A DNA stretch of 64,000 nt from Aulosira sp. ZfuVER01 (GCA_034530615.2 JAVRCV020000008.1:32001-96000); one strand, 5' to 3'; shown: positions 21,236 to 40,100, counted from the first letter of the stretch. Translations and numbers: made by a program. The notes: a model not told the origin generated them from the sequence alone.

Positions 21236-22750
21236 TCAAGAATTTCCAGCGGTTGCTAGGTCTTTAATTTGTGGTTCAGGAAATTGATGTAAAACTCGCC
21301 AAAGAATCGTATAGCTACCATCAGAACGGCGACGCACTGGCCGAAAAGCAATTAGGAGATCGCTACTACGTAATTGTTGGATTTGTCCTAGTAATTGGCG
21401 TTCTTCTGGCGAAAGCGGTCTACCGCTCAAAATCATATCTGGCAGTTGAAATTGGAGCGATCGCACTAAATACGTATGGTTTAATTCAGCTTTAGCATTA
21501 GCCAAAATAACCTGATTTAAATTCCAGTTCTGGTCTTTGCCCGTCAGGAACCGTCGCCGTTCTACTTGTAATTCATTTAATTTTTTGGGAGGCTGGTAGT
21601 TGAGAAAAAATTCTCGTGTTGGTTGCGCCACAGCTTTGAGTTTCTGCTCTAACTTGTTGATAGGCACATCGCCCAAATCTACCATGAAGCTGTAATCTAC
21701 ACCTTGATACCCCAGCCCAAAGCGATCGCCAATCAGCTGAAGTGCTAGACTGGGAGTAAATCCGCCTTGATTATCACCCAATGAGGGGAAAGGATAGCGT
21801 TCACTGACACTAGGTGCCAAGCGATTCTGAAGCGTATTCAGCGGACGCTGGTAAGCCAGATCGGGTAACACGCGGAAAATGCCAGTATCAGGCAATTTCA
21901 GAAAGGTAGCGTAGGTTTGCGGTTCTTGGGGATCGATGTCGTAAGAAAAGCGGTCAAGTACAGTAGAAGTTTCCTGAGGATTTGTAAATTGATTCTTTAA
22001 GGGGAATTCTACCTGGGCTGCGGTCAAGAATTTCTTAGCAGTTGCAAGTGTATTCAGTGCTTCATTTGGTGCTGCGATCGCGGGTTGTATGGGTGATACA
22101 TAGTCAGCTATGCCTGTTTTCGCAGTCCTACCAATAATTGGTGGCAATGGTGAAACTGCATTCGGTTCCTGTGTTGCAAAGGGTGTTGCTAGCTTGTCGA
22201 GTTGAGGACGCTGGATTGGTGCAATCGCCAGCGCCGGATCTGATTGTCGCTCACCCGTCACCAGCGGTAAACTTCGGACTAAGGCTAGCTCTCCCCGCCG
22301 AGATAACAAACGATCCAGTATTGGAGAAAGTTTTAATAATTCTTGGTTAGAAGTATACAAAGAGCAGTAAATTTTTAGTTGTGACCCAGTTAATTGCTCG
22401 GCTAAAGGGAAATTCTGAGTAGAATCCACTCTTGAGGTACATAAAGTTTTGGGACTTTTGCTTTGACGGTTCAAAAAAGCGTCTACAGACTTGGTGTGGA
22501 CAGTTAATTGCCCTTGCACCGCTCGCATCTGATTAGCATCAGGTGTAACGATCGCTTGCTCAATGCGGGCCATCAGATTGATCTGTTGCTGTACCAGATG
22601 ACTGGCTGTAGTATAAAAGCTTTCATTGGTTGGTTCCGCCGCCAGATTTTGATTTGGGGAGGATGTGAACTTAGAATCCACGTTTTGCATCTTCAGCGGC
22701 ACAGAAACCAAACTAAAAGGGAGCAAGAGACTGAAAAAGATGTATCTCAT
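21236..22750 (-). CDS. Hypothetical exported protein
   Basis: 504-aa ORF with N-terminal signal-like segment. Confidence 0.8.
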
Positions 22751-22876
22751 ATCAAAAACACAGGACTGTTAGGTGTAGAAAAATCTAAAATAGATATTAA
22801 ATTTAAAAGAAAGAACGACCACCGACCAGCGTCAGTCCATCTTAACTTTCTGTCAAGCGCGACCGGGTTGTTACCA

Positions 22877-24082
22877 GTGCTGAAACACGATTACATGCCA
22901 GTTTCCCAAGATCAGCCGATCTATTCTGAGGCTCCGCTCCAACTATTGCTGTTTGTCGATGGACGTCCCAAGTCCCGGCAACAAGTACAGCGAATACGTG
23001 CTTATTTGAAAGAATTGCAGACTGGGTATCATTTTGAACTGCAAATTATTGATGTTGGGCAACAACCCTATATGGCGGAACACTTTAAATTAGTGGCGAC
23101 GCCAGCTTTGATCAAAATCCACCCAGAACCAAGGCAAATCATTGCGGGAAGTAATATCGTCGGTCAACTAAAAAACTGGTGGCCCCGTTGGCAAGCCTCT
23201 GTAGATGCCTATTTGAAGCTACAAGAAGACTTACAAGAACGTCTAGACGAAAATGGTCGAGTAGTAGCACCCAAATCAACAATTGGTTCAGTTGCTGTTT
23301 CTGCCGAACTCATACGCCTCTCCGATGAGATTTTTCGCTTAAAGCAGGAACAAGAGAAACTCCAAGAGCAGTTGCAATTTAAAGATAGAGTAATCGCTGT
23401 GCTGGCCCATGACCTCCGTAATCCTTTAACAGCTGCTGCGATCGCTATAGAAACTCTCCAATCTAACTACAATATAGAGACAGGTCAATTCCAGCGCCTC
23501 AAACCAGCAATGACGGCGCATTTGTTAAAACAAGCCCGTAACCAAACCAAGACAATTGACCGTATGATTACGGATCTTTTGCAGGTAGGGAGAGGCAATG
23601 ATACTGAGCTACCAATCGTACCGCAAAAAATGGAAATCGGCAAATTCTGTCTAAATGTAGTGGAAGAATTGCGCGATCGCTATACTGCTAAATCTCAACA
23701 GGTAGAAACAGATGTCCCTCAAGACTTACCCTATGTGTATGCCGATCCAGAACGCATTCACCAAGTACTGGTGAATCTGTTAGACAATGCGATTAAATAT
23801 ACACCCACTGGTGGCAAGATTAGTGTGATAGGGTTGCACCGGACTACCCAAAAAGTTCAGATCAGCATTGGCGATACTGGCCCGGGAATTCCTTACGAAG
23901 ACCGCGATCGCATCTTTGAAAATCACTTCCGCCTGCAACGGGATGAAGGTACAGAAGGTTACGGTATCGGTCTGTGTGTTTGCCAACGAATTATTCGGGC
24001 GCACTATGGTCACATCTGGGTTGACTCTGTTCCCAATGGTGGAGCGTGGTTCCACTTTACATTGCCAGTTTATCCTTCTTAG
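22877..24082 (+). CDS. sasA: Circadian adaptive-response histidine kinase SasA
   Basis: KaiB-like N-domain (LQLLLFVD..., LVATPALIK), H-box [32 protein letters not shown] 22877 or ATG 22895 start. Confidence 0.95.
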
Positions 24083-27185: not shown

Positions 27186-28442
27186 TTATTTTAAGCGGTA
27201 AAGTATTTCACCTGCTTTCGGCACAAGTAAAATGCCTTCATCTTCCCGGTTAGCCCATTCTACTGGTTGAATGGTAGCCGGGTTACGATAATTTAAGTTA
27301 TGAGCAGCGCAGCGTTCTGGAGAAATACCAGTTGCGAGAGTTACCCGAATCCGTGCTTGTTCCCCTTTTATGGGGTCAAAAGTGCCCATACCTTTCAAGT
27401 GAGTACTATGAGCCAGCACTCCTGCAGGATAATCTGAGAATTTATCCCACTGTTTGAGAAAGTAATCCCGCACATGATAACCAATGTGGGCTAGGATTTC
27501 GCCGTATGTATAGCTAAACTCGGTAATGTGAGGAGCATAGATAATTACCTCACCGCCATCAGCTACTATTGGCTCTAGCTTGTACATTCCTTTAGCCGCT
27601 GTCCAAATATCGTCATACATTTCGGGCATGACTGAAAGCACTTGTTTAAAAGGCCGATCTACATATTTAATATGCACTTTGGCAGATAATTCCGCAGCGT
27701 TTTGCCAAGCTGCTTCTGGTTTATCTATATAAAGTCCCGCTAACTGATTTGTTCCTGGTGCGACTACCATAGCTAGGCAAAGCTTTGGGGTAGGAATCAG
27801 ACTAGTAGCGCGGTTAATTAAGCGGCGAACTGGCGTGATTCCTTGCGTACCAATAATTTCGTAACAGGTAATTAAAGCTCCTAACCAGTGTGATAAATTA
27901 ATTACTTCCTGACCGCTAATACCGGGGAAAAAATATTTATTTCCACCAGAAAACCCGACAACTTCGTGGGGAAAAACTGGGCCGCAAATAATTATCAGAT
28001 CGTATTCAGTTACCAATTTGTTAACACGCACATTAACTTCTTGATGCAGCATTCCACCGCTGATTTCTGCTATCTCATCTGCTGAAATCATGCCACAAGA
28101 AATAAATGTATCTGGTAGATGCCAAAGGTGGTTAAAAATTTGCACATTTTTAAATGTAGTCTCTCGCTCCTCCTGCGTTACCCCAACTAAGCGATTGATT
28201 TGTGATTCACTCATAGGATTATGTGTACCCAGAGCGATTAAAAAATCAAGTGCCATCACCCTCTTACCCAACTCTTGATGGAGTAATCGAAACATTTGGG
28301 GTATGGGAGCAGTGCGGGTTCCATCGGGAATTAATACGAGGATACGCTGTCCATTGAATTGCGGATCTGCCAAAGCTTGATGAACTAGTTCGGAAACTTG
28401 CTCATCGGAAAGCGTTCCATGATTTACGGCTAGTGAATACAT
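27186..28442 (-). CDS. hrmA: LarA-family nickel-pincer racemase/epimerase; positional equivalent of HrmA
   Basis: PDGTR, ALGTH, FPHEVVGFSGGNK, SH and AAKG match the LarA D/R, H, H/K, H and K catalytic positions; last gene after uxaC and the SDR. Confidence 0.85.
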   Translation of the reverse strand: MYSLAVNHGTLSDEQVSELVHQALADPQFNGQRILVLIPDGTRTAPIPQMFRLLHQELGKRVMALDFLIALGTHNPMSESQINRLVGVTQEERETTFKNVQIFNHLWHLPDTFISCGMISADEIAEISGGMLHQEVNVRVNKLVTEYDLIIICGPVFPHEVVGFSGGNKYFFPGISGQEVINLSHWLGALITCYEIIGTQGITPVRRLINRATSLIPTPKLCLAMVVAPGTNQLAGLYIDKPEAAWQNAAELSAKVHIKYVDRPFKQVLSVMPEMYDDIWTAAKGMYKLEPIVADGGEVIIYAPHITEFSYTYGEILAHIGYHVRDYFLKQWDKFSDYPAGVLAHSTHLKGMGTFDPIKGEQARIRVTLATGISPERCAAHNLNYRNPATIQPVEWANREDEGILLVPKAGEILYRLK

Positions 28443-28444
28443 TC

Positions 28445-29299
28445 TCAAACTCCGCTGTAGATACTAAAGCCACCGTCTACAGGTACAACCACCCCATTGA
28501 CGAAACTCGAACCAGAACTACATAACCAAATCAAAGTGCTGAGTAATTCCTCTGGTTCGCCAAAACGCCCAGCTGGGGTATGGTCAATAATTTTTTGCCC
28601 GCGATCACTTAAACTACCATCTGGATTTAACAGTAAATCTCGATTTTGCTCACCAATAAAAAAACCTGGTGCGATCGCATTCACTCGCAACCCTGCTCCA
28701 TACTTTTGGGCGAGTTCTACAGCTAGCCAACGTGTAAAATTATCGATCGCCGCTTTTGCTGCTGAATAACCCACCACCCGACTAATCGCACGAATAGCAG
28801 ACATCGAAGAAATATTGACAATGCAACCACGAGGCTGATTTCTGTCTACCATTGTTTGGCCAAAAACCTGACTAGGTAGTAGAGTACCCACCAAATTTAG
28901 ATCGACCACTTGCGCAAAAGCCGCGTGTGGCATATCAAAAAAAGTAGCATCAGGAGTAATTGTCGCCGCCGGAATATTCCCCCCAGCAGCGTTGATCAAG
29001 ATATCTATCTGTCCCCAATGCTTTAATACACTATCTCTGGCTACTTCTAACTGAGAGCGATCGCCCACATCTGCCAGCACAGCCATACTTTCCCCACCTT
29101 TGGCAGTAATATCAGCTACCACCCCCTTCGCACGTACTTCATTGCGACCGAGAACCACTACTCGCGCTCCTGTCAATGCTAAACCCCTAGCCATTGCCCC
29201 ACCAAGCACACCAGAACCACCTGTAACTACTGCTACCTGCTCTTCTAGACTAAAAAGCTTATGCAAAATCAAATCTGCTTTATTCAATAACTCTGGCAT
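28445..29299 (-). CDS. hrmU: SDR D-mannonate (fructuronate) oxidoreductase, HrmU/UxuB-type
   Basis: TGGSGVLG, INAAGGN, YSAAK, NAIAPGFF..QNR.LL, VDGGFS; directly follows uxaC. Confidence 0.88.
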   Translation of the reverse strand: MPELLNKADLILHKLFSLEEQVAVVTGGSGVLGGAMARGLALTGARVVVLGRNEVRAKGVVADITAKGGESMAVLADVGDRSQLEVARDSVLKHWGQIDILINAAGGNIPAATITPDATFFDMPHAAFAQVVDLNLVGTLLPSQVFGQTMVDRNQPRGCIVNISSMSAIRAISRVVGYSAAKAAIDNFTRWLAVELAQKYGAGLRVNAIAPGFFIGEQNRDLLLNPDGSLSDRGQKIIDHTPAGRFGEPEELLSTLIWLCSSGSSFVNGVVVPVDGGFSIYSGV

Positions 29300-29378
29300 T
29301 GATAACTCCTCTGCTAAAAAAAACTCTGCGTACCTTTGCGTTTACCTTTGCGCCCCTTTGCGTTAAAAAAGAAACTAA

Positions 29379-30800
29379 CTATTCCAACTTGTAAGCACTC
29401 TTAGCCAAGTCATAAACCAAAGCCTGCGCCATTTCGTAACCTTCCTCCTCCTCAACTAACCCACGCACTACCAATCCAGCTAACCAATTACAAGCAACAC
29501 GCCGCCAAACATTATGACGGGCAGGAATGGAAACAAAAGCCCGTGTATCATCATTAAACCCAGCAGTATTGTAAAGACCAGCAGTTTCCATCACCCGATC
29601 GAAGTAACGCTCCATACCATTCACACTGTCGTGAAACCACCAAGGCGGCCCAAGCAGTACAGCGGGATAATGACCAGCTAGTGGCGCTAATTCCCGGCTG
29701 TATGTGCTTTCATCCATGCCAAATAGAATTAAATGGAAGTCTTTATGATTACCGTAAGCTGATAACAACGGACGTAGATTTTGAGTCCACTCTAGTTGCA
29801 ATGGGATATCAGCACCTTTATCAGACTCAAACCGTTCAAAGATTGCTGGATTATGGTTGCGTGTGACACCACAATGCATTTGCATGACTAAGCCATCTTC
29901 CACACTCATCCGAGCCATTTCCATGAACATATGACCCGTAAATTGCTGCGCATCAAATGAATTTAGCTTGCCAGCTAATGCTCTAGCAAAAATAGCTTCG
30001 GCTTCTTGATCAGACAGTTGCGTGGTATAAGGTGTAGCTGCACTGTGGTCAGTAGCAGTCGCACCCATTTTTTTGAAGTAAGCCCGACGTTCTTCTAAAA
30101 CCTGGATAAAAGTAGCGTAATTGCTGATTTCCCTCCCGACAGTGCTTTCCAACTTGGCAAGATTTTCGCGCCAACCGGGAGTATCTAAATTAACTACTGC
30201 ATCTGGACGAAAGGTAGGTCTAATTTGAGTCCAACCCTCTTGATGTAAAGATTGATGGTGTTCAAGGCGATCGCTAGCTGCATCGGTGGTACAAAGTACT
30301 TCAATATGAAAGCGTTTAAATAAAGCCCGTGGTGAGAACTCAGGCAAAGCTAACTGTCTTTCCAGATAATCATAAATATGTCCAGCATTGCGAGAATTTA
30401 AAGGCTCATCCACCCCAAAGACGTTGGTTAGTTCTTCTTTCAACCACAAGCCGGAGGGAGTTCCCCGGAATAGGTAAAAATGGTCTGCAAAAAGTTGCCA
30501 GATTTTACGATGATCTGTTTCCACTGGCGAACCATCAGTGGTAGGTATGCCAAGAGCTTCTAGAGATATGCCCCGACTATAAAGCATACGGAAAACGTAG
30601 TGGTCGGGGATAATTAATAATTCCGTTGGCGAACCAAAACGGGCGGCTGGATCGGATAGCAAAGCTGGGTCAACATGACCGTGGGGACAGACAATTGGTG
30701 AAGAGGAGATACTGTCAAAAAATTTACGAGCTAGTTGTCGTTGAATTGGGTCTGGAGCAAAACAGCGATCGCGTGATAAACTCCATGTTTTAGTGAACAT
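29379..30800 (-). CDS. uxaC: Glucuronate (uronate) isomerase (HrmI)
   Basis: PHGHVDP, PDHYVFRMLYS, CTTD, PTFRPD, GPPWWFHD, GFNDDTRAF. Confidence 0.96.
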   Translation of the reverse strand: MFTKTWSLSRDRCFAPDPIQRQLARKFFDSISSSPIVCPHGHVDPALLSDPAARFGSPTELLIIPDHYVFRMLYSRGISLEALGIPTTDGSPVETDHRKIWQLFADHFYLFRGTPSGLWLKEELTNVFGVDEPLNSRNAGHIYDYLERQLALPEFSPRALFKRFHIEVLCTTDAASDRLEHHQSLHQEGWTQIRPTFRPDAVVNLDTPGWRENLAKLESTVGREISNYATFIQVLEERRAYFKKMGATATDHSAATPYTTQLSDQEAEAIFARALAGKLNSFDAQQFTGHMFMEMARMSVEDGLVMQMHCGVTRNHNPAIFERFESDKGADIPLQLEWTQNLRPLLSAYGNHKDFHLILFGMDESTYSRELAPLAGHYPAVLLGPPWWFHDSVNGMERYFDRVMETAGLYNTAGFNDDTRAFVSIPARHNVWRRVACNWLAGLVVRGLVEEEEGYEMAQALVYDLAKSAYKLE

Positions 30801-30828
30801 ATTTTTGTCTAGTTAAAGTTAGTTGATT

Positions 30829-31040
30829 GAAGGCAGAGGGCAAGGAGCAGGAGGCAGAATGGAAGAAAGATAAGAGGGTTAGTTTTATGTTTTATGCCTG
30901 AGGGTTTCAAGTTTATGAATTTATTGGTTTATTCCTTTCTCCTGTTTATAAATACTTAGAAACTCACCAATTCAGATAACTATTTAAAGAATCATAAATG
31001 AGTTCAAACCTTCTGCCTCTGCCCTCTGCCTCCTGCCTTC
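30829..31040. repeat. Inverted STRR-like (GGCAGGA/CTGCCTC) tracts bracketing the ndh-uxaC spacer
   Basis: gaaggcagagggcaaggagcaggaggcagaa ... ttctgcctctgccctctgcctcctgccttc; another tract at 32505-32532. Confidence 0.65.
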
Positions 31041-32342
31041 TCATTCACTTGGCTGTAATTCTTGACCTGTTATCAATCTTGCTCCCCGTTTGCGGGTGAC
31101 ATAATTCCATGCCCACTGGAGCATTACGATTAATTTATTGTCAAATTCGATTAAGAAGTAGATATGAATAAATAGCCAAAATAGCCATGCAATGAAATCT
31201 GTAAGTTTGATAAAGCCTAAATCTACAACGGCGGAATTATGACCAATCATCGCTAAACTGCCGCGGTCGATGTAAGAAAATTGTGGCAAGGTTTTATTGT
31301 GTAGTCGCTGTTTAATTAATGCCGCTACATATTCCCCTTCCTGCTTGGCTACAGGTGCAACTCCAGGTAGAGGTTTACCAGTTTGATGAGAGAAATTGGC
31401 TAAGTCTCCAATTACAAAAATATTCGGATAGCCTTTAATACTTAAGTCAGGTTCAACGATGACTCGCCCGACGCGATCGCATTCTACACCTGTGCGTTCT
31501 GCTAATACTTTCCCAATTGGCGAAGCTTGAACGCCTGCTGCCCACAATATTGTTTTTGAGGCAATCTTTTTCTCTTCATCTTCTTGTTTGATGGTAACAA
31601 TATCATTTTCAATATTTGTTACCAAGGTTTTTGTTTGCACCTCCACACCAAATCGTCGCAGAGATGCTTCTGCTGTTTGTGATAATTCTGGTGCATAAGG
31701 TGGCAAAATGCGATCCATACCTTCTAAAAGTAGAATTTTTGTTTCTGAAGTATCGATGTTACGAAAATCTTGTTTGAGGGTTTCGTATGCTAAATCTGCG
31801 AGTGCGCCAGCTAACTCTACACCTGTGGGGCCACCACCAACAATCACAAAAGTTAACCAAGCACGGCGTTTTTCTAAATCTGTTTCTTTTTCTGCTGCTT
31901 CAAATGCCATAAAAATTCGGCGGCGCATTTCGATAGCATCTTCTACAGTTTTCAAACCAGGGGCAAATTCTTCCCATTTATCTTTACCAAAATAGGAATG
32001 CTTAACACCTGTAGCAATAATTAATGTGTCATAGGGTATTGCTTCATCGCCAACGATCGCTTTTTGTGCTTGAGTATCAATATCGCTCACTTCACCCAGT
32101 ATCACTTTTGTATTCTTGCTCTTACTCAGTACTGCTCGCAACGGTGAAGAAATATCGGCAGGCGATAGTGTGCCTGTAGCAACTTGGTATAAAAGTGGTT
32201 GAAATAGGTGAAAGTTACGTTTATCAATGAGAGTAACGTTAACATTAGCTTTGGCGAGAGACTGTGCAGTGTACAATCCACCAAAGCCACCACCAACAAT
32301 CACGACTTGATGAGGTGAATTATTCTCAATTGAATCTATCAT
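31041..32342 (-). CDS. Type II NADH dehydrogenase (NDH-2 family)
   Basis: GGGFGG, FQPLLYQVATG, GGGPTGVELAG, IGD, PGVAPVAKQEG. Confidence 0.93.
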   Translation of the reverse strand: MIDSIENNSPHQVVIVGGGFGGLYTAQSLAKANVNVTLIDKRNFHLFQPLLYQVATGTLSPADISSPLRAVLSKSKNTKVILGEVSDIDTQAQKAIVGDEAIPYDTLIIATGVKHSYFGKDKWEEFAPGLKTVEDAIEMRRRIFMAFEAAEKETDLEKRRAWLTFVIVGGGPTGVELAGALADLAYETLKQDFRNIDTSETKILLLEGMDRILPPYAPELSQTAEASLRRFGVEVQTKTLVTNIENDIVTIKQEDEEKKIASKTILWAAGVQASPIGKVLAERTGVECDRVGRVIVEPDLSIKGYPNIFVIGDLANFSHQTGKPLPGVAPVAKQEGEYVAALIKQRLHNKTLPQFSYIDRGSLAMIGHNSAVVDLGFIKLTDFIAWLFWLFIHIYFLIEFDNKLIVMLQWAWNYVTRKRGARLITGQELQPSE

Positions 32343-32493
32343 AAGACATATTTTTGGGTGTTATGGGTGTGAAATTAGTATTAACAAAGATGTATTAAAA
32401 TGCTGAGAAAAAATTCTTTAACTATCGCTGAGTGCGCAAACAAAACGCGAACTATTTCTAAAATCAACTAATGCACTTCAGACTTTTTGAATC

Positions 32494-33552
32494 TCATTTT
32501 TCCTTCTGCCTCCTGCCTCCTGCCTCCTGCCTTTTAGCCGCACTACTACCCCGCTTAACTAAATAAGGAGTTAAAACGCAGTTTTCTACAGTTTTTTCCT
32601 GTAATAAATCGAGTAACATTTGCATCGCAGAACGACCAATTTCTAACATTGGCTGGCGAACTGTGGTGAGTGGGGGTGTAACGTAACCACCTAGAGCAAT
32701 ACCATCAAATCCGACTATGCTTAAATCTTGTGGAACCGAAGTACCTAGTTCTTGACAGCCTAAAAGAGCGCCTACCGCTACCATATCGTTGTAACAAAAG
32801 ATGCCTGTCACCCCAGCCGCAACTAGTTTAGGTAACATTTGTTGGCCTGTAACAACATCACTTGTTCTGACATTATATTCATCACTAATTGCTACCCAAT
32901 CCGCCTTTTGGGGTAAACCAGCTTCACTAAGAGTTTTTTGATATCCTTCTAGACGCTGCTGATTTGATCTGCTGCGATCGCTTACACCCAGGTATCCTAT
33001 AGAAGTGTGTCCTAGGCTGACTAAATGTTCTACAGCTAATCTAGCGCCTAAGCAGTCATCTACTGATACTGAGTGAAAGATTTCGGGTGGATCTTCAGTT
33101 TGGCTATGAATAAATACTGTTGGCACAGCAATTTGCCCTATTTGCTTCGTATCATGTTTACTAATTCGTGAATCCGCCACGAGAATACCGTCCACTCTCC
33201 GGCGATGAAAATTATCAATAGCCGCTATTTCCAGATCGACATTGCGGTGTGAAGTACTCAACAACACACTTAAACCTGATGTTCTGGCTATTTGTTCTAT
33301 TCCCTCTACTACTTCCGAAAAAAAGGGATCTGCTATTGAAGTTACTACTACCCCAATAGTATTAGTACGTTGAGTTTGTAAACTTTGCGCAATACTATTA
33401 GGAACATAACCCATCTCTCGCGCCAACTGCTTAATTTCCTCTCTTACCTTAGGGCTAATTAGAGTGCTATCTCGCAAAGCGCGTGAAACCGTGGTGTGAG
33501 AAACACCTGCTTTTCGAGCAATATCTTCTATTGAGATTTTTCGTTTACTCAT
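32494..33552 (-). CDS. hrmR: LacI/GalR family repressor (HrmR)
   Basis: ISIEDIARKAGVSHTTVSRAL, YVPNSIA, SIVGFD, PPLTTVRQP; hrm-type context. Confidence 0.9.
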   Translation of the reverse strand: MSKRKISIEDIARKAGVSHTTVSRALRDSTLISPKVREEIKQLAREMGYVPNSIAQSLQTQRTNTIGVVVTSIADPFFSEVVEGIEQIARTSGLSVLLSTSHRNVDLEIAAIDNFHRRRVDGILVADSRISKHDTKQIGQIAVPTVFIHSQTEDPPEIFHSVSVDDCLGARLAVEHLVSLGHTSIGYLGVSDRSRSNQQRLEGYQKTLSEAGLPQKADWVAISDEYNVRTSDVVTGQQMLPKLVAAGVTGIFCYNDMVAVGALLGCQELGTSVPQDLSIVGFDGIALGGYVTPPLTTVRQPMLEIGRSAMQMLLDLLQEKTVENCVLTPYLVKRGSSAAKRQEAGGRRQKEK

Positions 33553-33571
33553 TTATTATCTTACTTCTTTT

Positions 33572-33587
33572 ATGCACACGTGTGCAT
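33572..33587. promoter_or_regulatory. LacI-type operator candidate
   Basis: Perfect 16-bp palindrome ATGCACACGTGTGCAT with central CG in the 74-bp divergent hrmR/gluconokinase spacer. Confidence 0.8.
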
Positions 33588-33626
33588 TACAATATCAATT
33601 ATTAGGAAAATTGAATCACTTGTCAA

Positions 33627-34112
33627 ATGATTATTCTTGTAATGGGTGTTTCTGGATCTGGCAAAACCACCGTAGGAAAAATGCTAGCAGACTCGTTAGG
33701 CTGGACATTTAGCGACGCTGACGCTTTCCATTCGCCGGAGAATGTCGAAAAAATGCGGCAAGGTATTCCCTTGAGTGAAGCTGATAGGACACCTTGGTTA
33801 CAAGATTTGCAAACAGCTATTAAACATTGGCTACAAGAAAATAAAAATGTGGTGCTAGCGTGTTCGGCGTTAAAAGATAGCTATCGTCAATTTTTGGTGG
33901 TTGATAGCGAACGCATCAAGCTAGTGTACCTCAAAGGGTCTTATGAGTTGATTCAAAAGCGCCTTCAAGAACGTCAAAATCACTATATGAGTGATATACT
34001 TCTCACCAGCCAGTTTAATACTCTGGAAGAACCGTTAGAGACTATATATATAGATATTGCAGAGTCACCCCAGGCAATTGTCCAGAATATTAGAAGTGTT
34101 TTAGAAATTTAG
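33627..34112 (+). CDS. gntK: Gluconokinase (HrmK)
   Basis: MGVSGSGKT, DADAFH, VLACSALK, SQFNTLEEP. Confidence 0.95.
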   Translation: MIILVMGVSGSGKTTVGKMLADSLGWTFSDADAFHSPENVEKMRQGIPLSEADRTPWLQDLQTAIKHWLQENKNVVLACSALKDSYRQFLVVDSERIKLVYLKGSYELIQKRLQERQNHYMSDILLTSQFNTLEEPLETIYIDIAESPQAIVQNIRSVLEI

Positions 34113-34237: not shown

Positions 34238-34582
34238 ATGTTTCTCAGATTAGCGCAACAACATCGGGAATTTGTCAAAGACTTGGTAATGAACCTGCAA
34301 GCCTTGGCAATTGTACTCGATCGCCGGGGTTATCCAGCCTCTTGTTATACTTGCGGCGACAAAATGAACAGCGGTTCATTTATGGTTAGCTTGGGAGAAA
34401 ATCACTTGATTCGGTTTTTAGTATCTGATTACGGCATTACGTGGACAGAAATGAAGGATGACCACGAATTAATGAAATTGGAAGGTGCAGAAGCGATAAA
34501 TCAATTACAAGAGTTGGCTAATATCGTCAAGTATCTGAATACAGATAATCAAATTGACTTTGTCAATAATATTTGTTGTTAG
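34238..34582 (+). CDS. DUF1815 family protein
   Basis: MFLRLAQQHR...ASCYTC...RFLVSDYGITWTE. Confidence 0.85.
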   Translation: MFLRLAQQHREFVKDLVMNLQALAIVLDRRGYPASCYTCGDKMNSGSFMVSLGENHLIRFLVSDYGITWTEMKDDHELMKLEGAEAINQLQELANIVKYLNTDNQIDFVNNICC

Positions 34583-34793: not shown

Positions 34794-36185
34794 TTGCCTA
34801 AATCGATTCAATCCATTCAACCACCACTAAAATTTATTCCTCCACGCTTTAACGCAGTCATACTCCAGATTGCTAAGTGGTTGCTGCCAATTTTGTTGCG
34901 TTTGCGGCTGCGACCTTGGTTGCCAGCAGGTATTATCAAGATTGAAGCGAAAAATGCTGAAGTGTTAGCCCAGCTTTATGAAAAGTTCCAAGCTGGCAAA
35001 GTTCGCTTTTTGTTGGCGTTTCGGCATCCAGAGGTAGACGATCCGCTTTGTATGTTCTATCTACTTTCTCGGATTGTGCCAAAAGTCGCGCGTCAGCAAG
35101 GAATCAAGTTGCACTATCCAGTTCACTCTCACTTTCTCTACGATCGCGGTATGACTTTGTGGGCTGGTGACTGGCTGGGTTGGTTTTTCTCTTTGCTGGG
35201 AGGTGTTGCAATTCGTCGGGGTAAGCGATTAGATAGACAAGCTATCCAAACAGCACGAGATTTATTTGCCAATAGTAAAATGCCAATCTCAGTTGCACCA
35301 GAAGGCGGTACTAATGGTCATAGTGGCGTTGTTAGCCCCTTAGAACCTGGTGTTTCCCAACTGGGGTTTTGGTGTGTAGAAGACTTAGCCAAAGCCAACC
35401 GTCCTGAGACTGTTTTTGTTGTGCCGATCGCTATCCAGTATCGCTACGTTAACCCACCTTGGTCACAACTAGAGCGCTTGTTGAGTAAATTAGAAGCTGA
35501 TAGTGGCTTGCCAGTATTACCTGTTGAGAATGGTATAAATGGACAGCCAGAAATTTACTATCAACGCCTGTGTCGGCTGGCGGAACACGTTATTTCCGAA
35601 ATGGAAGAATTTTATCGTCGTTTCTATCATCAAAATCTTCCCCCTATCCCCAATCAAGAAATAATTTCCCGTCTGCACCGCCTGCTAGATACCGCCTTAC
35701 AAATGTCCGAGCAATATTTTAATATCCAGCCACAGGGAAATTTTATCGATCGCTGTCGTCGTTTGGAAGAGGCTGGTTGGAGTTACATTTACCGCGAAGA
35801 TATACCTGATATCGCTGCTTTATCACCCCTGAATCGCGGATTAGGCGACTGGATTGCTGAAGAAGCAGATTTGCGAATGCGACACATGCGCTTAGTCGAA
35901 AGTTTTGTCGCCGTCACCGCCAGCTATATTCAGGAACAACCAACAGCTGAACGCTGTGCAGAAATAACGCTACTGATATTCGATATGCTGTCTCGAATTA
36001 GTGAGCGAAAACCGCCTGCACGTCCCCGGTTAGGTTGGCGAACAGCAAGGATCAGCGTAGGTGAGCCAATTTCTGTTACAGAACGCTGGGCAAATTCTCA
36101 AGGCGATCGCCAAGCATCTCGCAACGCTACAAGTCAGTTAACACGAGACTTGAAACTTGCTTTAGAAGAGTTAATTGCCAGATAA
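34794..36185 (+). CDS. Glycerolipid acyltransferase (PlsC-like) family protein
   Basis: HPEVDD (HX4D), APEGG, VPIAIQY. Confidence 0.85.
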   Translation: MPKSIQSIQPPLKFIPPRFNAVILQIAKWLLPILLRLRLRPWLPAGIIKIEAKNAEVLAQLYEKFQAGKVRFLLAFRHPEVDDPLCMFYLLSRIVPKVARQQGIKLHYPVHSHFLYDRGMTLWAGDWLGWFFSLLGGVAIRRGKRLDRQAIQTARDLFANSKMPISVAPEGGTNGHSGVVSPLEPGVSQLGFWCVEDLAKANRPETVFVVPIAIQYRYVNPPWSQLERLLSKLEADSGLPVLPVENGINGQPEIYYQRLCRLAEHVISEMEEFYRRFYHQNLPPIPNQEIISRLHRLLDTALQMSEQYFNIQPQGNFIDRCRRLEEAGWSYIYREDIPDIAALSPLNRGLGDWIAEEADLRMRHMRLVESFVAVTASYIQEQPTAERCAEITLLIFDMLSRISERKPPARPRLGWRTARISVGEPISVTERWANSQGDRQASRNATSQLTRDLKLALEELIAR

Positions 36186-36230
36186 AATTCGATATATGAA
36201 TTATAAATATTTTAACCACTTGCTACTAAC

Positions 36231-36264
36231 AAGATCCCCGAATTATTGAAGAAGTCGGGGATCT
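36231..36264. repeat. Dispersed palindrome / possible terminator
   Basis: aagatccccgaattattgaagaagtcggggatct. Confidence 0.55.
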
Positions 36265-36342
36265 GAACCTCTCGATTTTCATAAATCAAATATCTTAAAT
36301 GCTCGTTTGATGATTTTTTCTCAGCGTTGAGAAATCTGGCAC

Positions 36343-37110
36343 ATGCTATCTCAGAATTTCATTATTCAAAACTTCTCAGAAATTTTAATTTTTGTGACTT
36401 TTATCGGATTAGTTGGGTGGACGATAAGCGATCGCGTTAGTCGTACTCAACTAAAAGTTAAAAGTCGTCAAGATTGGTTGCTCGATGGTATAGGTTTAAC
36501 GATTCAAGGAATTTTGATTCCTTTACTACAGGCGACCTTAGTTTATTGGCTTTACCATAATTTATTACCGAATTATCAGGGATATCTAAAAGTATCACCA
36601 ATTTTTACTTTTTTTATCAGCTTTGTTCTAATTGATTACTTATATTATTGGAATCATCGTTTATTGCATAGTCAATGGTTTTGGCAAGTGCATCAAGTAC
36701 ATCATACCGTCACGCAGATGGATGTACTAGGAACTTCTCGTAATACCATTTGGACAAGTTTGTTAATTATTTATTTATGGATACACACTTTGTTTGTATA
36801 TTTATTAGCCGATCCAACAGGTTATCTATTGGGAGTAAGTTTAACTTCTGCTCTGGATTTATGGCGACATAGCCGCTTGATGATTGCTGAAAATTACTGG
36901 CTATATAGATTTTTATTCCCTTGGTTAATCCTACCGCAGGATCATGCATGGCATCATTGCAGTGAAGTTTTTAATCGCAACTATGGCGCTAATGTAAAAA
37001 TTTGGGATAAGTTACATGGAACATATTATGAAAGTCAATATTCACCATCTACAATCGGAATTACTACTTCCCTAACTTTCACTCAAAAACTCTTATTTCC
37101 CTTTTTATAA
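36343..37110 (+). CDS. Sterol desaturase/fatty-acid hydroxylase family di-iron enzyme
   Basis: His boxes HRLLH, HQVHH, HAWHH; NYG...WDKLHGT. Confidence 0.92.
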   Translation: MLSQNFIIQNFSEILIFVTFIGLVGWTISDRVSRTQLKVKSRQDWLLDGIGLTIQGILIPLLQATLVYWLYHNLLPNYQGYLKVSPIFTFFISFVLIDYLYYWNHRLLHSQWFWQVHQVHHTVTQMDVLGTSRNTIWTSLLIIYLWIHTLFVYLLADPTGYLLGVSLTSALDLWRHSRLMIAENYWLYRFLFPWLILPQDHAWHHCSEVFNRNYGANVKIWDKLHGTYYESQYSPSTIGITTSLTFTQKLLFPFL

Positions 37111-37180
37111 GAGCAGACTATACACTGAATAAAAATCTTTCTCTCTATGCCCAATCCCCCATGCCCGATGCCCAATTTAC

Positions 37181-37789
37181 ATGACCTTTTTAAGTAAAAT
37201 TCTGTTATTTTTTCCCACCCTGATATTAATGCTAACTGGGGCAGCAATAGTCTATCTCGCCTATTCACCCAGCATATTCAGTATTCTGGCTGTGTTGCTT
37301 TCTATTTATGGTTTGCCTCTAATAGTTTACCGCTGGCATCAATGGGTATACCCTGTACAGGAAGGCATTAGTTATTTAATTGGGAAAGAATATAGCCCTT
37401 GGTGGGGTAGTCATCAAATCCAGGTAATTTATATTACTATTCCGGTGTTAGAAGCAGTTCTGCGACTGATACCAGGTGCATTTTCGTTTTGGTTGCGATT
37501 GTGGGGTGCTAAGGTGGGGCGAAATGTCTACTGGACACCGGGATTAGAAATTGCCGATCGCGGTTTATTAGAAATTGGCGATCGCGTGGTTATGGGTCAT
37601 CGGGTTGCTATTTCTTCCCATGTCATCAAGCCCCGCAAGCAAAACTTAATGTTGTATGTCAAAAAAGTCAAGATTGGCAACGATGTCTTTGTGGGAGCCG
37701 GATCTATTCTCGCACCTGGTGTAGTCATTGGGGATGGCACATTTTTGACAATGGCTACCAACCTTTCTCCTAACCAGCAGGTTCCATAA
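37181..37789 (+). CDS. Membrane-anchored hexapeptide-repeat (LbH) acyltransferase-like protein
   Basis: TM segments, LRLWGAKVG, VKIGNDVFVGAGSILAPGVVIG. Confidence 0.85.
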   Translation: MTFLSKILLFFPTLILMLTGAAIVYLAYSPSIFSILAVLLSIYGLPLIVYRWHQWVYPVQEGISYLIGKEYSPWWGSHQIQVIYITIPVLEAVLRLIPGAFSFWLRLWGAKVGRNVYWTPGLEIADRGLLEIGDRVVMGHRVAISSHVIKPRKQNLMLYVKKVKIGNDVFVGAGSILAPGVVIGDGTFLTMATNLSPNQQVP

Positions 37790-39303
37790 TGCGTCCAATT
37801 ATTCAACTCTTTGGGCAAATACTCGCAGCAAGTGCAAGGCGATTTCAGCAAGCATTGGATAATCCTGAGTCAATGCAGATATCTGTACACAAAGAGATTT
37901 GCGATCGCCTAATTAAAAGTGAGTATGGTAAAGCCTTGGGAATTCATTCTGTAGCAGATTGGCAAAACGTACCGATTGTTAATTACGACGCACTCGAACC
38001 TTGGATTCCTGCACATAACAAACCTCAGCAAATTCCCCTGACTCCCGAACCCATTTTGTTTTATGAAAAAACCTCTGGTAGTAGTGGGGCGGCGAAATGG
38101 ATTCCCTACACTAAGTCTTTGCGCCGATCTTTCAATCAGATGTTTTGTGTATGGGCGCACGATCTGATTGTAAATGGCCCGAAATTCTCCACAGGTAAGC
38201 TTTACGCCTGTATATCGCTGCAATTAAATCTGCCTGATTCCCAATCTTTACAGGATGACCTAGATTATTTAGATGGTTGGCTGCGTTGGTTGCTGCGCCC
38301 TTGGTTGGTGATACCGGATGGACTAAATCGCCTCCACGATCCGCAGTTGTTTAAACATCAGCTGGCTTTGGCATTATTGCAGGCTGAGACACTGGAAATT
38401 ATTTCGATTTGGAGTCCGAGTTTCCTGCAAGTACATCTAAAATACATTCAGGAAAATCAGGAGTTATTGCGAACAGAATTACATAACCGAGTATCGCGCG
38501 ATCGCTTACAAATCCTTAGCGAAAGTAAAATTCCCTGGACACAACTTTGGTCAAACTTAAAGCTGATTTCTTGCTGGGATAGCGCCAACGCCGCCGATCA
38601 AGCACAAGGATTGCGATCGCAATTTCCGGGTGTGTTAGTTCAAGGTAAAGGACTACTAGCAACCGAAGCCCCAATGACGATTCCGTTAATTGCTGCTGGG
38701 GGTTATGTTCCGGTTCTCGATGAAGTTTTTTTCGAGTTTGAGGATGATGCTGGTTCACTACATGGGTTACACGAACTCAGCAACGGACAGGAATACACGA
38801 TTATTTTGTCACAGAAAGGAGGTTTGTATCGTTATCGAATAGGCGATCGCGTCCGGGTGACTCATTGGTATCGCCAAACCCCCTGTTTAGAATTTTTGGG
38901 GCGACACCAAACCATCAGCGATTTAGTGGGCGAAAAGTTGCACGAAGCTTTTGTACATGATGCTTTGAATCGCATGAACTTACAGGGAACTCACTTTAAA
39001 AGTTTAGTTCCCGTTGCTAATCCACCTCATTATCTTTTGTTACTTGATGCAGCAAAAGAAACCCCAGAAACCATTGCCCAACAACTGGATTATGCCTTAT
39101 CACAGTCGCATCACTACTATCGTGCGCGCGCGATCGGTCAACTTGCACCAGTACAGGTTTTAATTTCTCATCAAATTCCTGAACTGTTAGCCTTGCATCG
39201 CATCCGTAGTGGTAGTATCTGGGGAGGTATTAAGCATCAAATTCTGGCAACATCACCTATTAATACTGAACTTTTAGAAGCATTGCAATTAGGGAATTCC
39301 TAA
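37789..39303 (+). CDS. GH3 family acyl-adenylate/amido synthetase
   Basis: EKTSGSSG, GLLATEA, GLYRYRIGD, GEKL; TAATG stop/start coupling with the upstream gene. Confidence 0.9.
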   Translation: MRPIIQLFGQILAASARRFQQALDNPESMQISVHKEICDRLIKSEYGKALGIHSVADWQNVPIVNYDALEPWIPAHNKPQQIPLTPEPILFYEKTSGSSGAAKWIPYTKSLRRSFNQMFCVWAHDLIVNGPKFSTGKLYACISLQLNLPDSQSLQDDLDYLDGWLRWLLRPWLVIPDGLNRLHDPQLFKHQLALALLQAETLEIISIWSPSFLQVHLKYIQENQELLRTELHNRVSRDRLQILSESKIPWTQLWSNLKLISCWDSANAADQAQGLRSQFPGVLVQGKGLLATEAPMTIPLIAAGGYVPVLDEVFFEFEDDAGSLHGLHELSNGQEYTIILSQKGGLYRYRIGDRVRVTHWYRQTPCLEFLGRHQTISDLVGEKLHEAFVHDALNRMNLQGTHFKSLVPVANPPHYLLLLDAAKETPETIAQQLDYALSQSHHYYRARAIGQLAPVQVLISHQIPELLALHRIRSGSIWGGIKHQILATSPINTELLEALQLGNS

Positions 39304-40100
39304 TTTCTTTTGAGTTCATGCATACTTTTTACCACTTTTGTTACCAGATTTCTTGGTGTAAATCTGACACTTTCAGCTAGTATTTTATTTCTTAAACCAG
39401 GAACTACAACTGTTTTATTTGCCATTAAGCTGCGATAACCGATTTTGGCAACTGTTTCTGTATCCATCATTCGATTAACGCTAGAAATCTTGGATTCTTC
39501 CATTGCAGCTGATTGTTGAAATGCCGTTGCTGTTGGCCCTGGACAAAGAGTCGTAACAGTAACACCTGTATCTTCTAATTCATTAGCAATTGCTTCCGAA
39601 AAAGATAAAACATAGGCTTTAGTAGCGAAATAAACTGCCATTAAAGGCCCTGGTTGAAAAGCAGCAACCGAGGCAACATTTAATATTTTTCCATAGCGTT
39701 GCGCTACCATATCTTTGAGAAACAACTTTGTTAAATGGGTGAGACTCACTATATTGACCTGTAACATCTTCAGTTCAGTATTCAGGTCTGTTTCAGCAAA
39801 TACTCCATAGGTACCAAATCCGGCATTGTTAACCAACACATCAACCTTGATAGATACTTGCTGTAACTCAATAAAAATTTCTTCTGGAGATGTTGATATA
39901 GATAAATCCTTAACAAGAGTTTTGACAAAAATGCCAAACTTTTCCGGAAATTCCGCTGCCATCTCATTGAGTTTTTCTTCTTGCTTATCTACTAACACAA
40001 GATTGTAACGATTCCGAGCAAAAATGTATGCTAATTGGTAGCCAATTCCACTAGATGCCCCAGTAATCAGAGCAGTTTTTTGGCGCTGACCTTCATTCAT
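39300..40100 (-). CDS. Short-chain dehydrogenase/reductase
   Basis: TGASSGIG, NNAGFG, YFATK. Confidence 0.92.
   Translation of the reverse strand: MNEGQRQKTALITGASSGIGYQLAYIFARNRYNLVLVDKQEEKLNEMAAEFPEKFGIFVKTLVKDLSISTSPEEIFIELQQVSIKVDVLVNNAGFGTYGVFAETDLNTELKMLQVNIVSLTHLTKLFLKDMVAQRYGKILNVASVAAFQPGPLMAVYFATKAYVLSFSEAIANELEDTGVTVTTLCPGPTATAFQQSAAMEESKISSVNRMMDTETVAKIGYRSLMANKTVVVPGLRNKILAESVRFTPRNLVTKVVKSMHELKRN

What the first reader, a model, noticed from the sequence alone, without database searches (positions are those of the whole stretch)
27186..34112. hrm locus: HrmA looks like a nickel-pincer (LarA-family) mannonate/gluconate epimerase, giving a UxuA-independent hexuronate route
Seen: uxaC, a mannonate-type SDR and a LarA-like gene form a tight co-oriented run, with a LacI gene and a divergent gluconokinase next door. 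No mannonate dehydratase (uxuA), kdgK or eda is present in the window. The LarA-like protein retains PDxTR, GTH, H-x9-K, a further H and K, which are the NPN-binding/catalytic positions. Established: this gene set matches the Nostoc punctiforme hrm (hormogonium regulation, symbiosis) locus, where HrmA was described without a biochemical function; LarA homologues include a D-gluconate/D-mannonate 2-epimerase (GntE); the NPN cofactor requires LarB/C/E. Inference: glucuronate > fructuronate (UxaC) > D-mannonate (HrmU) > D-gluconate (HrmA, C2 epimerisation) > 6-phosphogluconate (GntK) > oxidative pentose phosphate pathway. This would explain the gluconokinase, make hrm function nickel-dependent, and give cyanobacterial larBCE a client enzyme.
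Basis: partly seen in the sequence, partly recalled or inferred. Interest (0 to 1): 0.88.

Follow-up and report, generated by a model that had tools for sequence, protein, structure and literature searches.

The report
Nostoc hrm locus nickel sugar-acid epimerase
This is the known hormogonium-regulating (hrm) gene cluster of plant-symbiotic cyanobacteria, and its unexplained gene hrmA most likely encodes a nickel-cofactor enzyme that turns mannonate into gluconate, completing a route from inositol or glucuronate into the pentose phosphate pathway.

Summary
The genes are real, with one omission: a duplicated NDH-2 gene lies between the LacI gene and uxaC. The LarA-like protein is 86.6% identical to N. 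punctiforme HrmA (ACC83654). It keeps all seven cofactor and catalytic residues, and its model matches GntE2 (4NAR, TM 0.91). It belongs to group 19 (GntE1), whose one assayed member has a poor KM for mannonate (120 mM).

The genome has larB, larC, larE and gnd, but no uxuA, uxaA or uxaE. The HrmR-type operator occurs exactly three times: once here and twice before an unlinked inositol oxygenase (hrmE), so the route probably starts at myo-inositol. Among 131 family genomes, LarA and UxaC occur in the same 11, all with the oxygenase; UxuA is in none. LarC and LarE (131) are near-universal, so HrmA does not explain why they are kept.

The pieces are in print: HrmA as LarA-like (2018 supplement), the orthologue as a putative gluconate epimerase (2020 dataset), the route for Thermotoga (2012). 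I did not find them joined. This scan reported the same reading on other genomes (e1-4250464, e1-2696310). No activity has been shown for HrmA.

The parts
27186..28442 (-). hrmA: LarA-superfamily group 19 (GntE1-like) nickel-pincer enzyme, predicted D-mannonate/D-gluconate 2-epimerase, 418 aa from ATG
   Evidence: 86.6% identical to HrmA ACC83654; D40, R43, H74, H159, K169, H185, K284 invariant in 157/157 (61); best PDB hit 4NAR by sequence E 1e-65 (6) and fold TM 0.91 (96); dN/dS 0.09 (75)
28445..29299 (-). hrmU: SDR, D-mannonate oxidoreductase (fructuronate reductase) type
   Evidence: PRK08277 over cut-off; upstream of hrmA in 20 of 20 Nostocales loci
29379..30800 (-). hrmI: uronate isomerase UxaC
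   Evidence: PRK02925 over cut-off; found in the same 11 of 131 family genomes as Lar_N
31041..32342 (-). type II NADH dehydrogenase, a duplicate inserted between hrmR and hrmI; not a core hrm gene
   Evidence: Pyr_redox_2 + NDH2_C; 82% paralogue on contig C28; absent from 20 Nostocales loci; present at this place in G428 (61)
32494..33552 (-). hrmR: LacI/GalR-family repressor
   Evidence: LacI + Peripla_BP_3 (4); 73-81% identical to the gene at this place in 17 of 20 Nostocales loci
33573..33586 (.). perfect 14-bp palindrome TGCACACGTGTGCA, predicted HrmR operator, between the divergent hrmR and hrmK
   Evidence: 3 exact copies in the 8.0-Mb genome: this one and two before MIOX on C7 (43); invariant in 10 of 10 aligned loci; binding not tested
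33598..33626 (-). sigma-70-like promoter for hrmR (TTGACA-17-AATAAT) just upstream of the operator
   Evidence: 11 of 12 consensus match; TTGACA invariant in 10 of 10 loci; the scan overall found fewer sites than shuffles, so conservation is the evidence
33627..34112 (+). hrmK: GntK/IdnK-type gluconokinase
   Evidence: TIGR01313 over cut-off; PDB gluconokinases E 1e-31 to 1e-33; only copy found in the genome
34238..34582 (+). DUF1815 gene ('unk2' of the hrm locus), function unknown
   Evidence: PF08844 E 1e-52 (4); beside hrmK in 14 of 20 Nostocales loci; named as part of the locus in PMC5987646 supplement

Best explanation
This is the hrmKRIUA half of the hrm regulon; the other half (hrmE = myo-inositol oxygenase, a sugar ABC transporter, porin and sugar porter) lies on contig C7 with two copies of the same operator. 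When an inducing sugar acid releases HrmR, the cell runs: myo-inositol + O2 -> D-glucuronate (HrmE) -> D-fructuronate (HrmI) -> D-mannonate (HrmU, NAD(P)H) -> D-gluconate (HrmA, C2 epimerisation by hydride transfer on the nickel-pincer cofactor made by the resident LarB/LarC/LarE) -> 6-phosphogluconate (HrmK, ATP) -> Gnd and the oxidative pentose phosphate pathway. HrmA replaces the missing mannonate dehydratase as the exit from mannonate. Shown here: gene identities, residues, fold, operator distribution, co-occurrence and absences. Shown by others on homologues: the epimerase chemistry (GntE1, GntE2, LarAH15) and cofactor synthesis by Synechocystis larBCE. Inferred: HrmA's substrate, the direction of flux, inositol as the input, and any link from this flux to repression of hormogonia.
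For: Identity. Group 19 'G2E2' label for Npun_F5335, same 20 signature residues as the window, 18 of 20 shared with assayed GntE1. Fold closest to GntE2, TM 0.91 against 0.55-0.77 for the lactate, malate and other LarA structures. No other exit: UxuA 0 in own genome, 0 of 131 family genomes, 0 of 20 Nostocales genomes holding hrmA; no UxaA; no UxaE by tblastn; the two enolase-fold proteins are MenC (over cut-off) and a dipeptide-epimerase-like protein (below cut-off); both IlvD/Edd-family genes score as IlvD. Co-occurrence: Lar_N and UxaC in the same 11 of 131 genomes, all 11 with MIOX (51-53). hrmI, U and A are lost or decayed together in G189, G402, G365 and in a lichen symbiont. Gene order: in G403 and G361 the genes form one strand R-I-U-A-K, with hrmK under 30 bp behind hrmA. 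G380 has intact E-R-I-U-A and only an ordinary unlinked gluconokinase. Operator: the two exact sites outside the window both precede MIOX (0.003 expected), matching the published HrmR targets hrmR and hrmE. Cofactor genes over cut-off; Gnd present. In 60 non-cyanobacterial loci the neighbours are SDR 39, UxaE 20, Gnd 18, UxaC 5.
Against: No activity has been measured for HrmA. The only assayed group-19 enzyme has KM 120 mM for D-mannonate and its authors suggest another native substrate. The protein passes no curated LarA-family cut-off (best 194 bits against 500). hrm-linked kinases carry Tyr for Phe in the lid motif, which may mean altered specificity. The published in-vitro effector of HrmR is galacturonate, which this genome cannot obviously catabolise. 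MIOX persists in 4 genomes (plus one broken copy) that lack intact hrmIUA, so it can be kept without the lower route. Campbell et al. are cited as favouring synthesis of an inhibitor over catabolism. larBCE presence is uninformative because it is near-universal. The co-occurring genomes are kin and linked genes travel together, so 11 of 11 is not 11 independent tests. UxuA and this epimerase are not exclusive outside cyanobacteria (8 of 30 genomes have both).
Confidence: 0.7

Rival explanations
1. Kinase first: HrmK phosphorylates D-mannonate and HrmA epimerises 6-phosphomannonate to 6-phosphogluconate, as the activities found in Lactobacillus suebicus extracts do. Same end product, different order.
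For: L. suebicus uses this order, genes unidentified. It would explain GntE1's 120 mM KM for free mannonate.
Against: G380 keeps intact hrmEIUA with only an HFM-type unlinked kinase. HrmK is a standard TIGR01313 gluconokinase, and E. coli GntK is reported not to use mannonate. All three assayed GntE enzymes act on the free acid. Operon order is A then K in G403 and G361.
Confidence: 0.12
2. Signal-making locus: the enzymes have these chemistries, but their role is to make or clear a sugar-acid signal (inducer of HrmR or inhibitor of hormogonia), with little carbon reaching the pentose phosphate pathway.
For: This is the published hypothesis (Campbell 2003 as reported in PMC5987646). MIOX, hrmR, operators and transporters survive loss of hrmIUA in G402, G365 and G189 (98).
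Against: The run ends in an ATP-driven kinase feeding a central metabolite, and non-cyanobacterial relatives place the same epimerase beside gnd and uxaE in plainly catabolic operons. The rival is compatible with the same enzyme assignment for HrmA.
Confidence: 0.1
3. HrmA acts on another sugar acid (altronate from galacturonate, a uronate, or an aldarate such as glucarate/mannarate).
For: Desguin et al. suggest a uronic or aldaric acid for group 19; galacturonate is the published HrmR effector.
Against: The upstream enzyme scores as D-mannonate oxidoreductase, the co-regulated MIOX makes glucuronate, and no UxaA or UxaE was found to finish a galacturonate branch. The C2 epimer of altronate (allonate) has no evident fate (own knowledge).
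Confidence: 0.08

Closest known systems
hrm locus of Nostoc punctiforme ATCC 29133 (hrmE, hrmK, hrmR, hrmI, hrmU, hrmA; Cohen & Meeks 1997, Campbell et al. 2003, both seen only as reported in PMC5987646 and PMC8461463)
   Same: Same gene set and order (unk2, K, R, I, U, A); HrmA 86.6% identical; operator sites lie at hrmR and hrmE, the two published HrmR targets. The split from hrmE and the sugar transporters is described for Nostoc N6 and 232.
   Different: An NDH-2 duplicate sits between hrmR and hrmI. The C7 half has an aldose-1-epimerase after the sugar porter and no mviM-like ORF between porin and porter.
LarAH19/GntE1 of Corynebacterium glutamicum and group 19 'G2E2' (PMC7583248)
   Same: Same group as the N. 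punctiforme orthologue Npun_F5335; 18 of 20 signature residues; uronate-isomerase and LacI neighbours typical of the group.
   Different: GntE1 was assayed (KM 120 mM, kcat 59/s); HrmA was not. Identity to GntE1 was not computed because its sequence was not held as a tool record.
Thermotoga maritima gnd-uxaR-uxaE-uxaD-gntE-gntK operon with GntE2/LarAH20 (PDB 4NAR; Rodionova 2012 as reported in PMC6978723 and PMC3750489)
   Same: Same proposed fructuronate > mannonate > gluconate > 6-phosphogluconate route; same fold (TM 0.91, rmsd 2.2, 33% identity).
   Different: Thermotoga enters from galacturonate through UxaE, uses a GntR regulator and also has uxuA. Here entry is from glucuronate or inositol (MIOX), the regulator is LacI-type, and there is no UxuA. 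Only 11 of 20 signature residues match GntE2.
Eukaryotic myo-inositol oxygenation route (MIOX; PDB 2HUO, 2IBN)
   Same: HrmE matches solved inositol oxygenases at E 3e-78, so the first step would be the same.
   Different: Animals and plants take glucuronate on to gulonate or UDP-glucuronate (own knowledge); here it would pass through the bacterial isomerase, reductase and nickel epimerase.

Membership tests
LarA superfamily (NPN-dependent 2-hydroxyacid racemases/epimerases) | Lar_N domain and LarA fold | tested here: met
   PF09861 E 4e-22 (4); model pLDDT 93 (91); the 13 listed top Foldseek hits are all LarA-family structures
LarA superfamily | Cofactor-binding R75, K184, H200 and catalytic D72, H108, H174, K298 (LarA numbering) | tested here: met
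   R43, K169, H185, D40, H74, H159, K284; invariant in 157 of 157 (61)
LarA superfamily | larB, larC and larE in the genome | tested here: met
   All over curated cut-offs with open frames; not discriminating, since LarC is in 130 and LarE in 131 of 131 family genomes
LarA superfamily | Binds NPN and needs it for activity | not testable with these tools
   Needs holoprotein mass and assay
Group 19 / GntE1-type gluconate 2-epimerases | Group signature (loop EV, helix-11 W-T-A-K, helix-14 G-L/I-A-S-T-H-K/R) | tested here: met
   20 of 20 positions as in Npun_F5335, 18 of 20 as in GntE1; positions placed by motif, following the published row
Group 20 / GntE2 | Group signature (ES, A, G, N-A-A-V-I-N-R) | tested here: not met
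   11 of 20 positions; works like GntE2 but is not a group-20 member
Group 18 (NCBIfam NPN_18_hexonate) | Score above 500 bits | tested here: not met
   194 bits
Gluconate 2-epimerase (activity) | Interconverts D-mannonate and D-gluconate | not testable with these tools
   Shown only for GntE1, GntE2, LarAH15 and LarAH10
hrm locus | hrmK, R, I, U, A in order and orthology to N. punctiforme HrmA | tested here: met
   NDH-2 inserted
hrm locus | hrmE and sugar transporters under the same operator | tested here: met
   MIOX on C7 with two exact operators, followed by ABC transporter, porin and sugar porter; unlinked
hrm locus | Induced by plant extract and needed to repress hormogonia | not testable with these tools
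   Phenotype known only for N. punctiforme
Canonical UxuA-KdgK-Eda hexuronate pathway | uxuA and kdgK present | tested here: not met
   UxuA 0; no PfkB protein over a KdgK cut-off; Eda present

The most novel reading that the evidence does not exclude
The hrm regulon is a chimeric inositol-catabolic pathway: a eukaryote-type inositol oxygenase joined to a Chloroflexota-related nickel-pincer epimerase that plugged into cofactor synthesis and a gluconokinase already resident in cyanobacteria. The plant's unidentified hormogonium-repressing factor is myo-inositol or glucuronate, and repression works through flux into 6-phosphogluconate. The switch from motile to nitrogen-fixing symbiont would then depend on nickel and on larBCE, with HrmA the first native client of the cofactor in a cyanobacterium.
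Probability: 0.25. Interest if true: 0.75.

Novelty: new member of a known kind. Interest (0 to 1): 0.45.

Why it matters
HrmA has lacked a reaction since the locus was described in 1997; a 2018 figure legend still lists it as unknown. Joining two supplements gives a specific, cheap assay and turns the old question of whether hrm is catabolic or makes a signal into a tracing experiment. It predicts that larC or larE mutants and nickel limitation will copy the hrmUA phenotype, and it names inositol as a candidate input. It does not solve why nearly all these cyanobacteria keep larBCE: 120 of 131 genomes have no Lar_N protein.

Tried and rejected
Single-sequence fold was useless (pLDDT 42); repeated with a 101-row alignment. 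RNA runs: none was listed; no evidence either way. Literature search by locus tag returned unrelated papers in the 20 of 87 listed. Three papers were not held (PMC120779, PMC3613469, PMC94640), so the original hrm papers were not read. The first tree script gave no answer; a FastTree run replaced it, without a formal clade test. A tree including GntE1 and GntE2 was not built because those sequences were not held as tool records; group membership rests on the published dataset row and signature residues. Rejected: lactate or malate racemase (65-91 bits against cut-offs of 460-500; signature differs); a hidden mannonate dehydratase among the enolase-fold or IlvD/Edd proteins; larBCE as specific support; the NDH-2 as a core member (0 of 20 named Nostocales loci); the two-mismatch operator-like site on C38, which lies inside a long unrelated ORF (43, 47). 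The promoter/terminator scan was not enriched over shuffles and showed no terminator between hrmR, the NDH-2 and hrmI.
Full report
Observation. The six-frame listing confirms the LarA-like gene, SDR and uxaC as a tight run on the minus strand (2 bp and 79 bp gaps), and LacI and gluconokinase genes 74 bp apart and divergent. Family scans support each name, the SDR, UxaC and GntK over curated cut-offs. It has an 82% paralogue on contig C28 and is missing from all 20 Nostocales loci fetched by name, but stands at the same place in G428.

Identity with hrmA. The closest named relatives are Nostocales proteins at 84-94%, then mostly unnamed or Chloroflexota proteins at 66-77%. One cluster member is ACC83654 of N. 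punctiforme ATCC 29133, 86.6% identical over 417 residues. A supplementary table of PMC5987646 lists ACC83654 as 'HrmA protein', and its supplementary text already says hrmA resembles nickel-dependent lactate racemase. So the identification is firm, and the LarA likeness has been in print since 2018, although the paper's main figure calls hrmA unknown.

Which LarA group. By sequence the best solved structure is 4NAR (E 1e-65; next 4.5e-9), which PMC7583248 identifies as GntE2 of T. maritima. A model built on 101 sequences (pLDDT 93) matches 4NAR at TM 0.91 and other LarA structures at 0.55-0.77. Dataset S2 of that paper lists Npun_F5335 in group 19 with putative function 'G2E2', beside the assayed C. 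glutamicum GntE1; its printed start agrees with P0135. The window protein has the same 20 signature residues as that row, 18 of 20 of GntE1 and 11 of 20 of GntE2. The seven cofactor and catalytic residues are invariant in 157 of 157 close homologues; pairwise dN/dS to 25 Nostocales copies has median 0.09, like hrmU and hrmI (pairs not independent). The caveat is real: GntE1 has KM 120 mM for mannonate against 17 mM for GntE2 and 9.4 mM for LarAH15, and the authors suspect another native substrate for group 19.

Genome context. The 99.99%-complete genome has one larB, larC and larE over cut-off, one Lar_N gene, Gnd and Eda. It has no UxuA, UxaA or, by tblastn, UxaE; its enolase-fold, IlvD/Edd and PfkB proteins score as other enzymes. 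PMC11796402 shows that Synechocystis larB, larC and larE make the cofactor and states that most cyanobacteria lack LarA.

The regulon is larger than the window. A perfect palindrome at 33573-33586 sits just downstream of a TTGACA-17-AATAAT promoter for hrmR and of a weaker rightward one for hrmK; palindrome and TTGACA are invariant in 10 of 10 aligned loci. The exact word occurs three times in the genome; the two other copies are 34 bp apart before a myo-inositol oxygenase on C7, against 0.003 expected (the word was picked from the window, so only the C7 sites are a test). This gene matches solved inositol oxygenases at E 3e-78 and is followed by two sugar-binding proteins, ABC ATPase, permease, porin, sugar porter and aldose epimerase. 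It corresponds to hrmE, and hrmR and hrmE are the published HrmR targets. MIOX lies within the fetched flank in 15 of 20 Nostocales loci. MIOX makes glucuronate, the substrate of UxaC, so the route likely begins at inositol.

Distribution. In 131 genomes of the family (own included), Lar_N is in 11 and UxaC in the same 11; MIOX in 16, including all 11; UxuA in 0; LarC in 130; LarE in 131; gluconokinase in 105. LarB is in 30 of 30 handles with hrmA (29 distinct genomes). UxuA was sought in the genomes of 50 of the 80 loci: 0 of 20 Nostocales, 8 of 30 others over cut-off. In a phylum sample of 301 the protein matched 6 genomes, only 3 (own included) as full-length close orthologues. Of the five MIOX-only genomes, three inspected with enough flank (G402, G365, G189) are relics that kept operators and transporters and lost or broke hrmI, U and A; G433's contig starts just before MIOX, and G422's copy is broken and was not fetched. 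These are kin, and linked genes move together, so the counts show one cassette rather than independent events.

Order of steps. G403 and G361 carry R-I-U-A-K on one strand with hrmK right behind hrmA. G380 has intact E-R-I-U-A without hrmK and only an ordinary unlinked gluconokinase. Both favour epimerase first. Against it, the 15 closest kinases have HYM in the lid where 14 of the next 15 have HFM (30 loci fetched of 105 genomes), as PMC5987646 noted, and L. suebicus phosphorylates mannonate first.

Origin. In a FastTree tree of 79 of the 80 loci (truncated L087 dropped), the window and one distant outgroup, the 20 Nostocales proteins form one clade (1.0) inside a clade with three Chloroflexota proteins (0.998). 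This suggests transfer from a Chloroflexota-related donor; the root is weak, the sample is the top 80 hits and no clade test was run. The 60 non-cyanobacterial loci hold SDR (39), UxaE (20), Gnd (18), UxaC (5) and varied kinases.

What is known. The route mannonate > gluconate > 6-phosphogluconate was proposed for T. maritima in 2012 (as reported) and the epimerase shown in 2020. I found no paper joining this to hrm in searches; one search (hrmA, Nostoc, epimerase) gave one paper on a sponge symbiont, seen as listing only. The library lacks most subscription journals, and bioRxiv supplements are closed, so this is not proof of absence. This scan reached the same reading on other genomes; my reading was fixed before that call.

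Papers seen. PMC7583248: parts 1-3 of 6 of the text, rows of supplement 1, part 1 of 2 of supplement 2. PMC5987646: passages, supplement 2 part 3, two rows of supplement 6. Passages only: PMC11770544, PMC8461463, PMC6978723, PMC3750489, PMC11796402, PMC13524815, PMC9620832, PMC10095879, PMC6702271, PMC10575698, bioRxiv 10.1101/2021.10.27.465970. Cohen & Meeks 1997, Campbell 2003, Rodionova 2012 and Ekman 2013 were not seen, only reported by others.

Verdict. A real, known locus with a well-supported but untested assignment for HrmA. My odds: NPN-dependent hexonate 2-epimerase about 0.9; free mannonate to gluconate in the full route 0.7. The value lies in making a 1997 question testable, not in a new kind of system.

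Noticed in passing
window 31041-32342 (-); paralogue G000:C28:52233-53591; L098:6763-8061: An intact NDH-2 duplicate sits inside the hrm run here and in G428 (94% identical, dN/dS 0.08), with no terminator-like site around it. It may be co-transcribed under HrmR; it would compete with HrmU for NADH, so its role is unclear.
   Followed up: partly
L104:1624-1671 (G000:C7:56623-56670) and L104:3529-13222: The hrmE half of the regulon, with two different sugar-binding proteins (about 60% identical). One may bind inositol rather than fructose; untested inference.
   Followed up: partly
L150 (G403) and L151 (G361): hrm genes rearranged onto one strand as R-I-U-A-K-DUF1815-E-transporters.
   Followed up: partly
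L102 (G189), L112 (G402), L114 (G365), L133 (G435), L127 (G095): Decayed or partial hrm loci: hrmI, U and A lost or in fragments while hrmR and its operator, and often MIOX, remain.
   Followed up: partly
family sample: LarC and LarE are kept in 130 and 131 of 131 genomes, while 120 have no Lar_N protein: an unknown nickel-pincer client. NPN-binding aldo-keto reductases and an ornithine cyclodeaminase are reported elsewhere; not searched here.
   Followed up: no
L038:8926-9870 and 10 other non-cyanobacterial loci: A conserved ORF with no Pfam hit at E 1e-8 (HAD-phosphatase-like by eye) lies beside the epimerase in 11 of 60 loci.
   Followed up: no
L065, L069, L085, L040, L042 (Chloroflexota loci): The same 14-bp palindrome (0-1 mismatch) occurs in Chloroflexota loci, in three of them just before the LacI gene, so regulator and operator may have come with the epimerase.
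   Followed up: no
window 34238-34582; G000:C31:93229-93522: DUF1815 has a 90% identical second copy in the genome; in several relatives the hrm copy has its own operator sites, here it has none.
   Followed up: no
G000:C25:71743 and C6:146229: Two near-identical IlvD genes and no dedicated Edd.
   Followed up: partly
L011 (G295) and L012 (G022): Two distant LarA homologues (27-29%) in other genomes of the phylum sample, without hrm genes in the short flanks read.
   Followed up: no
window 22508-24082 (+) and 34794-40100 (+): A SasA-like kinase, and a run of acyltransferase, hydroxylase, GH3-like and SDR genes; labels recalled from the translations, not from a call.
   Followed up: no
G000:C38:19600-30000: Phage-tail-like gene cluster resembling a contractile injection system (label recalled from the translations).
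   Followed up: no
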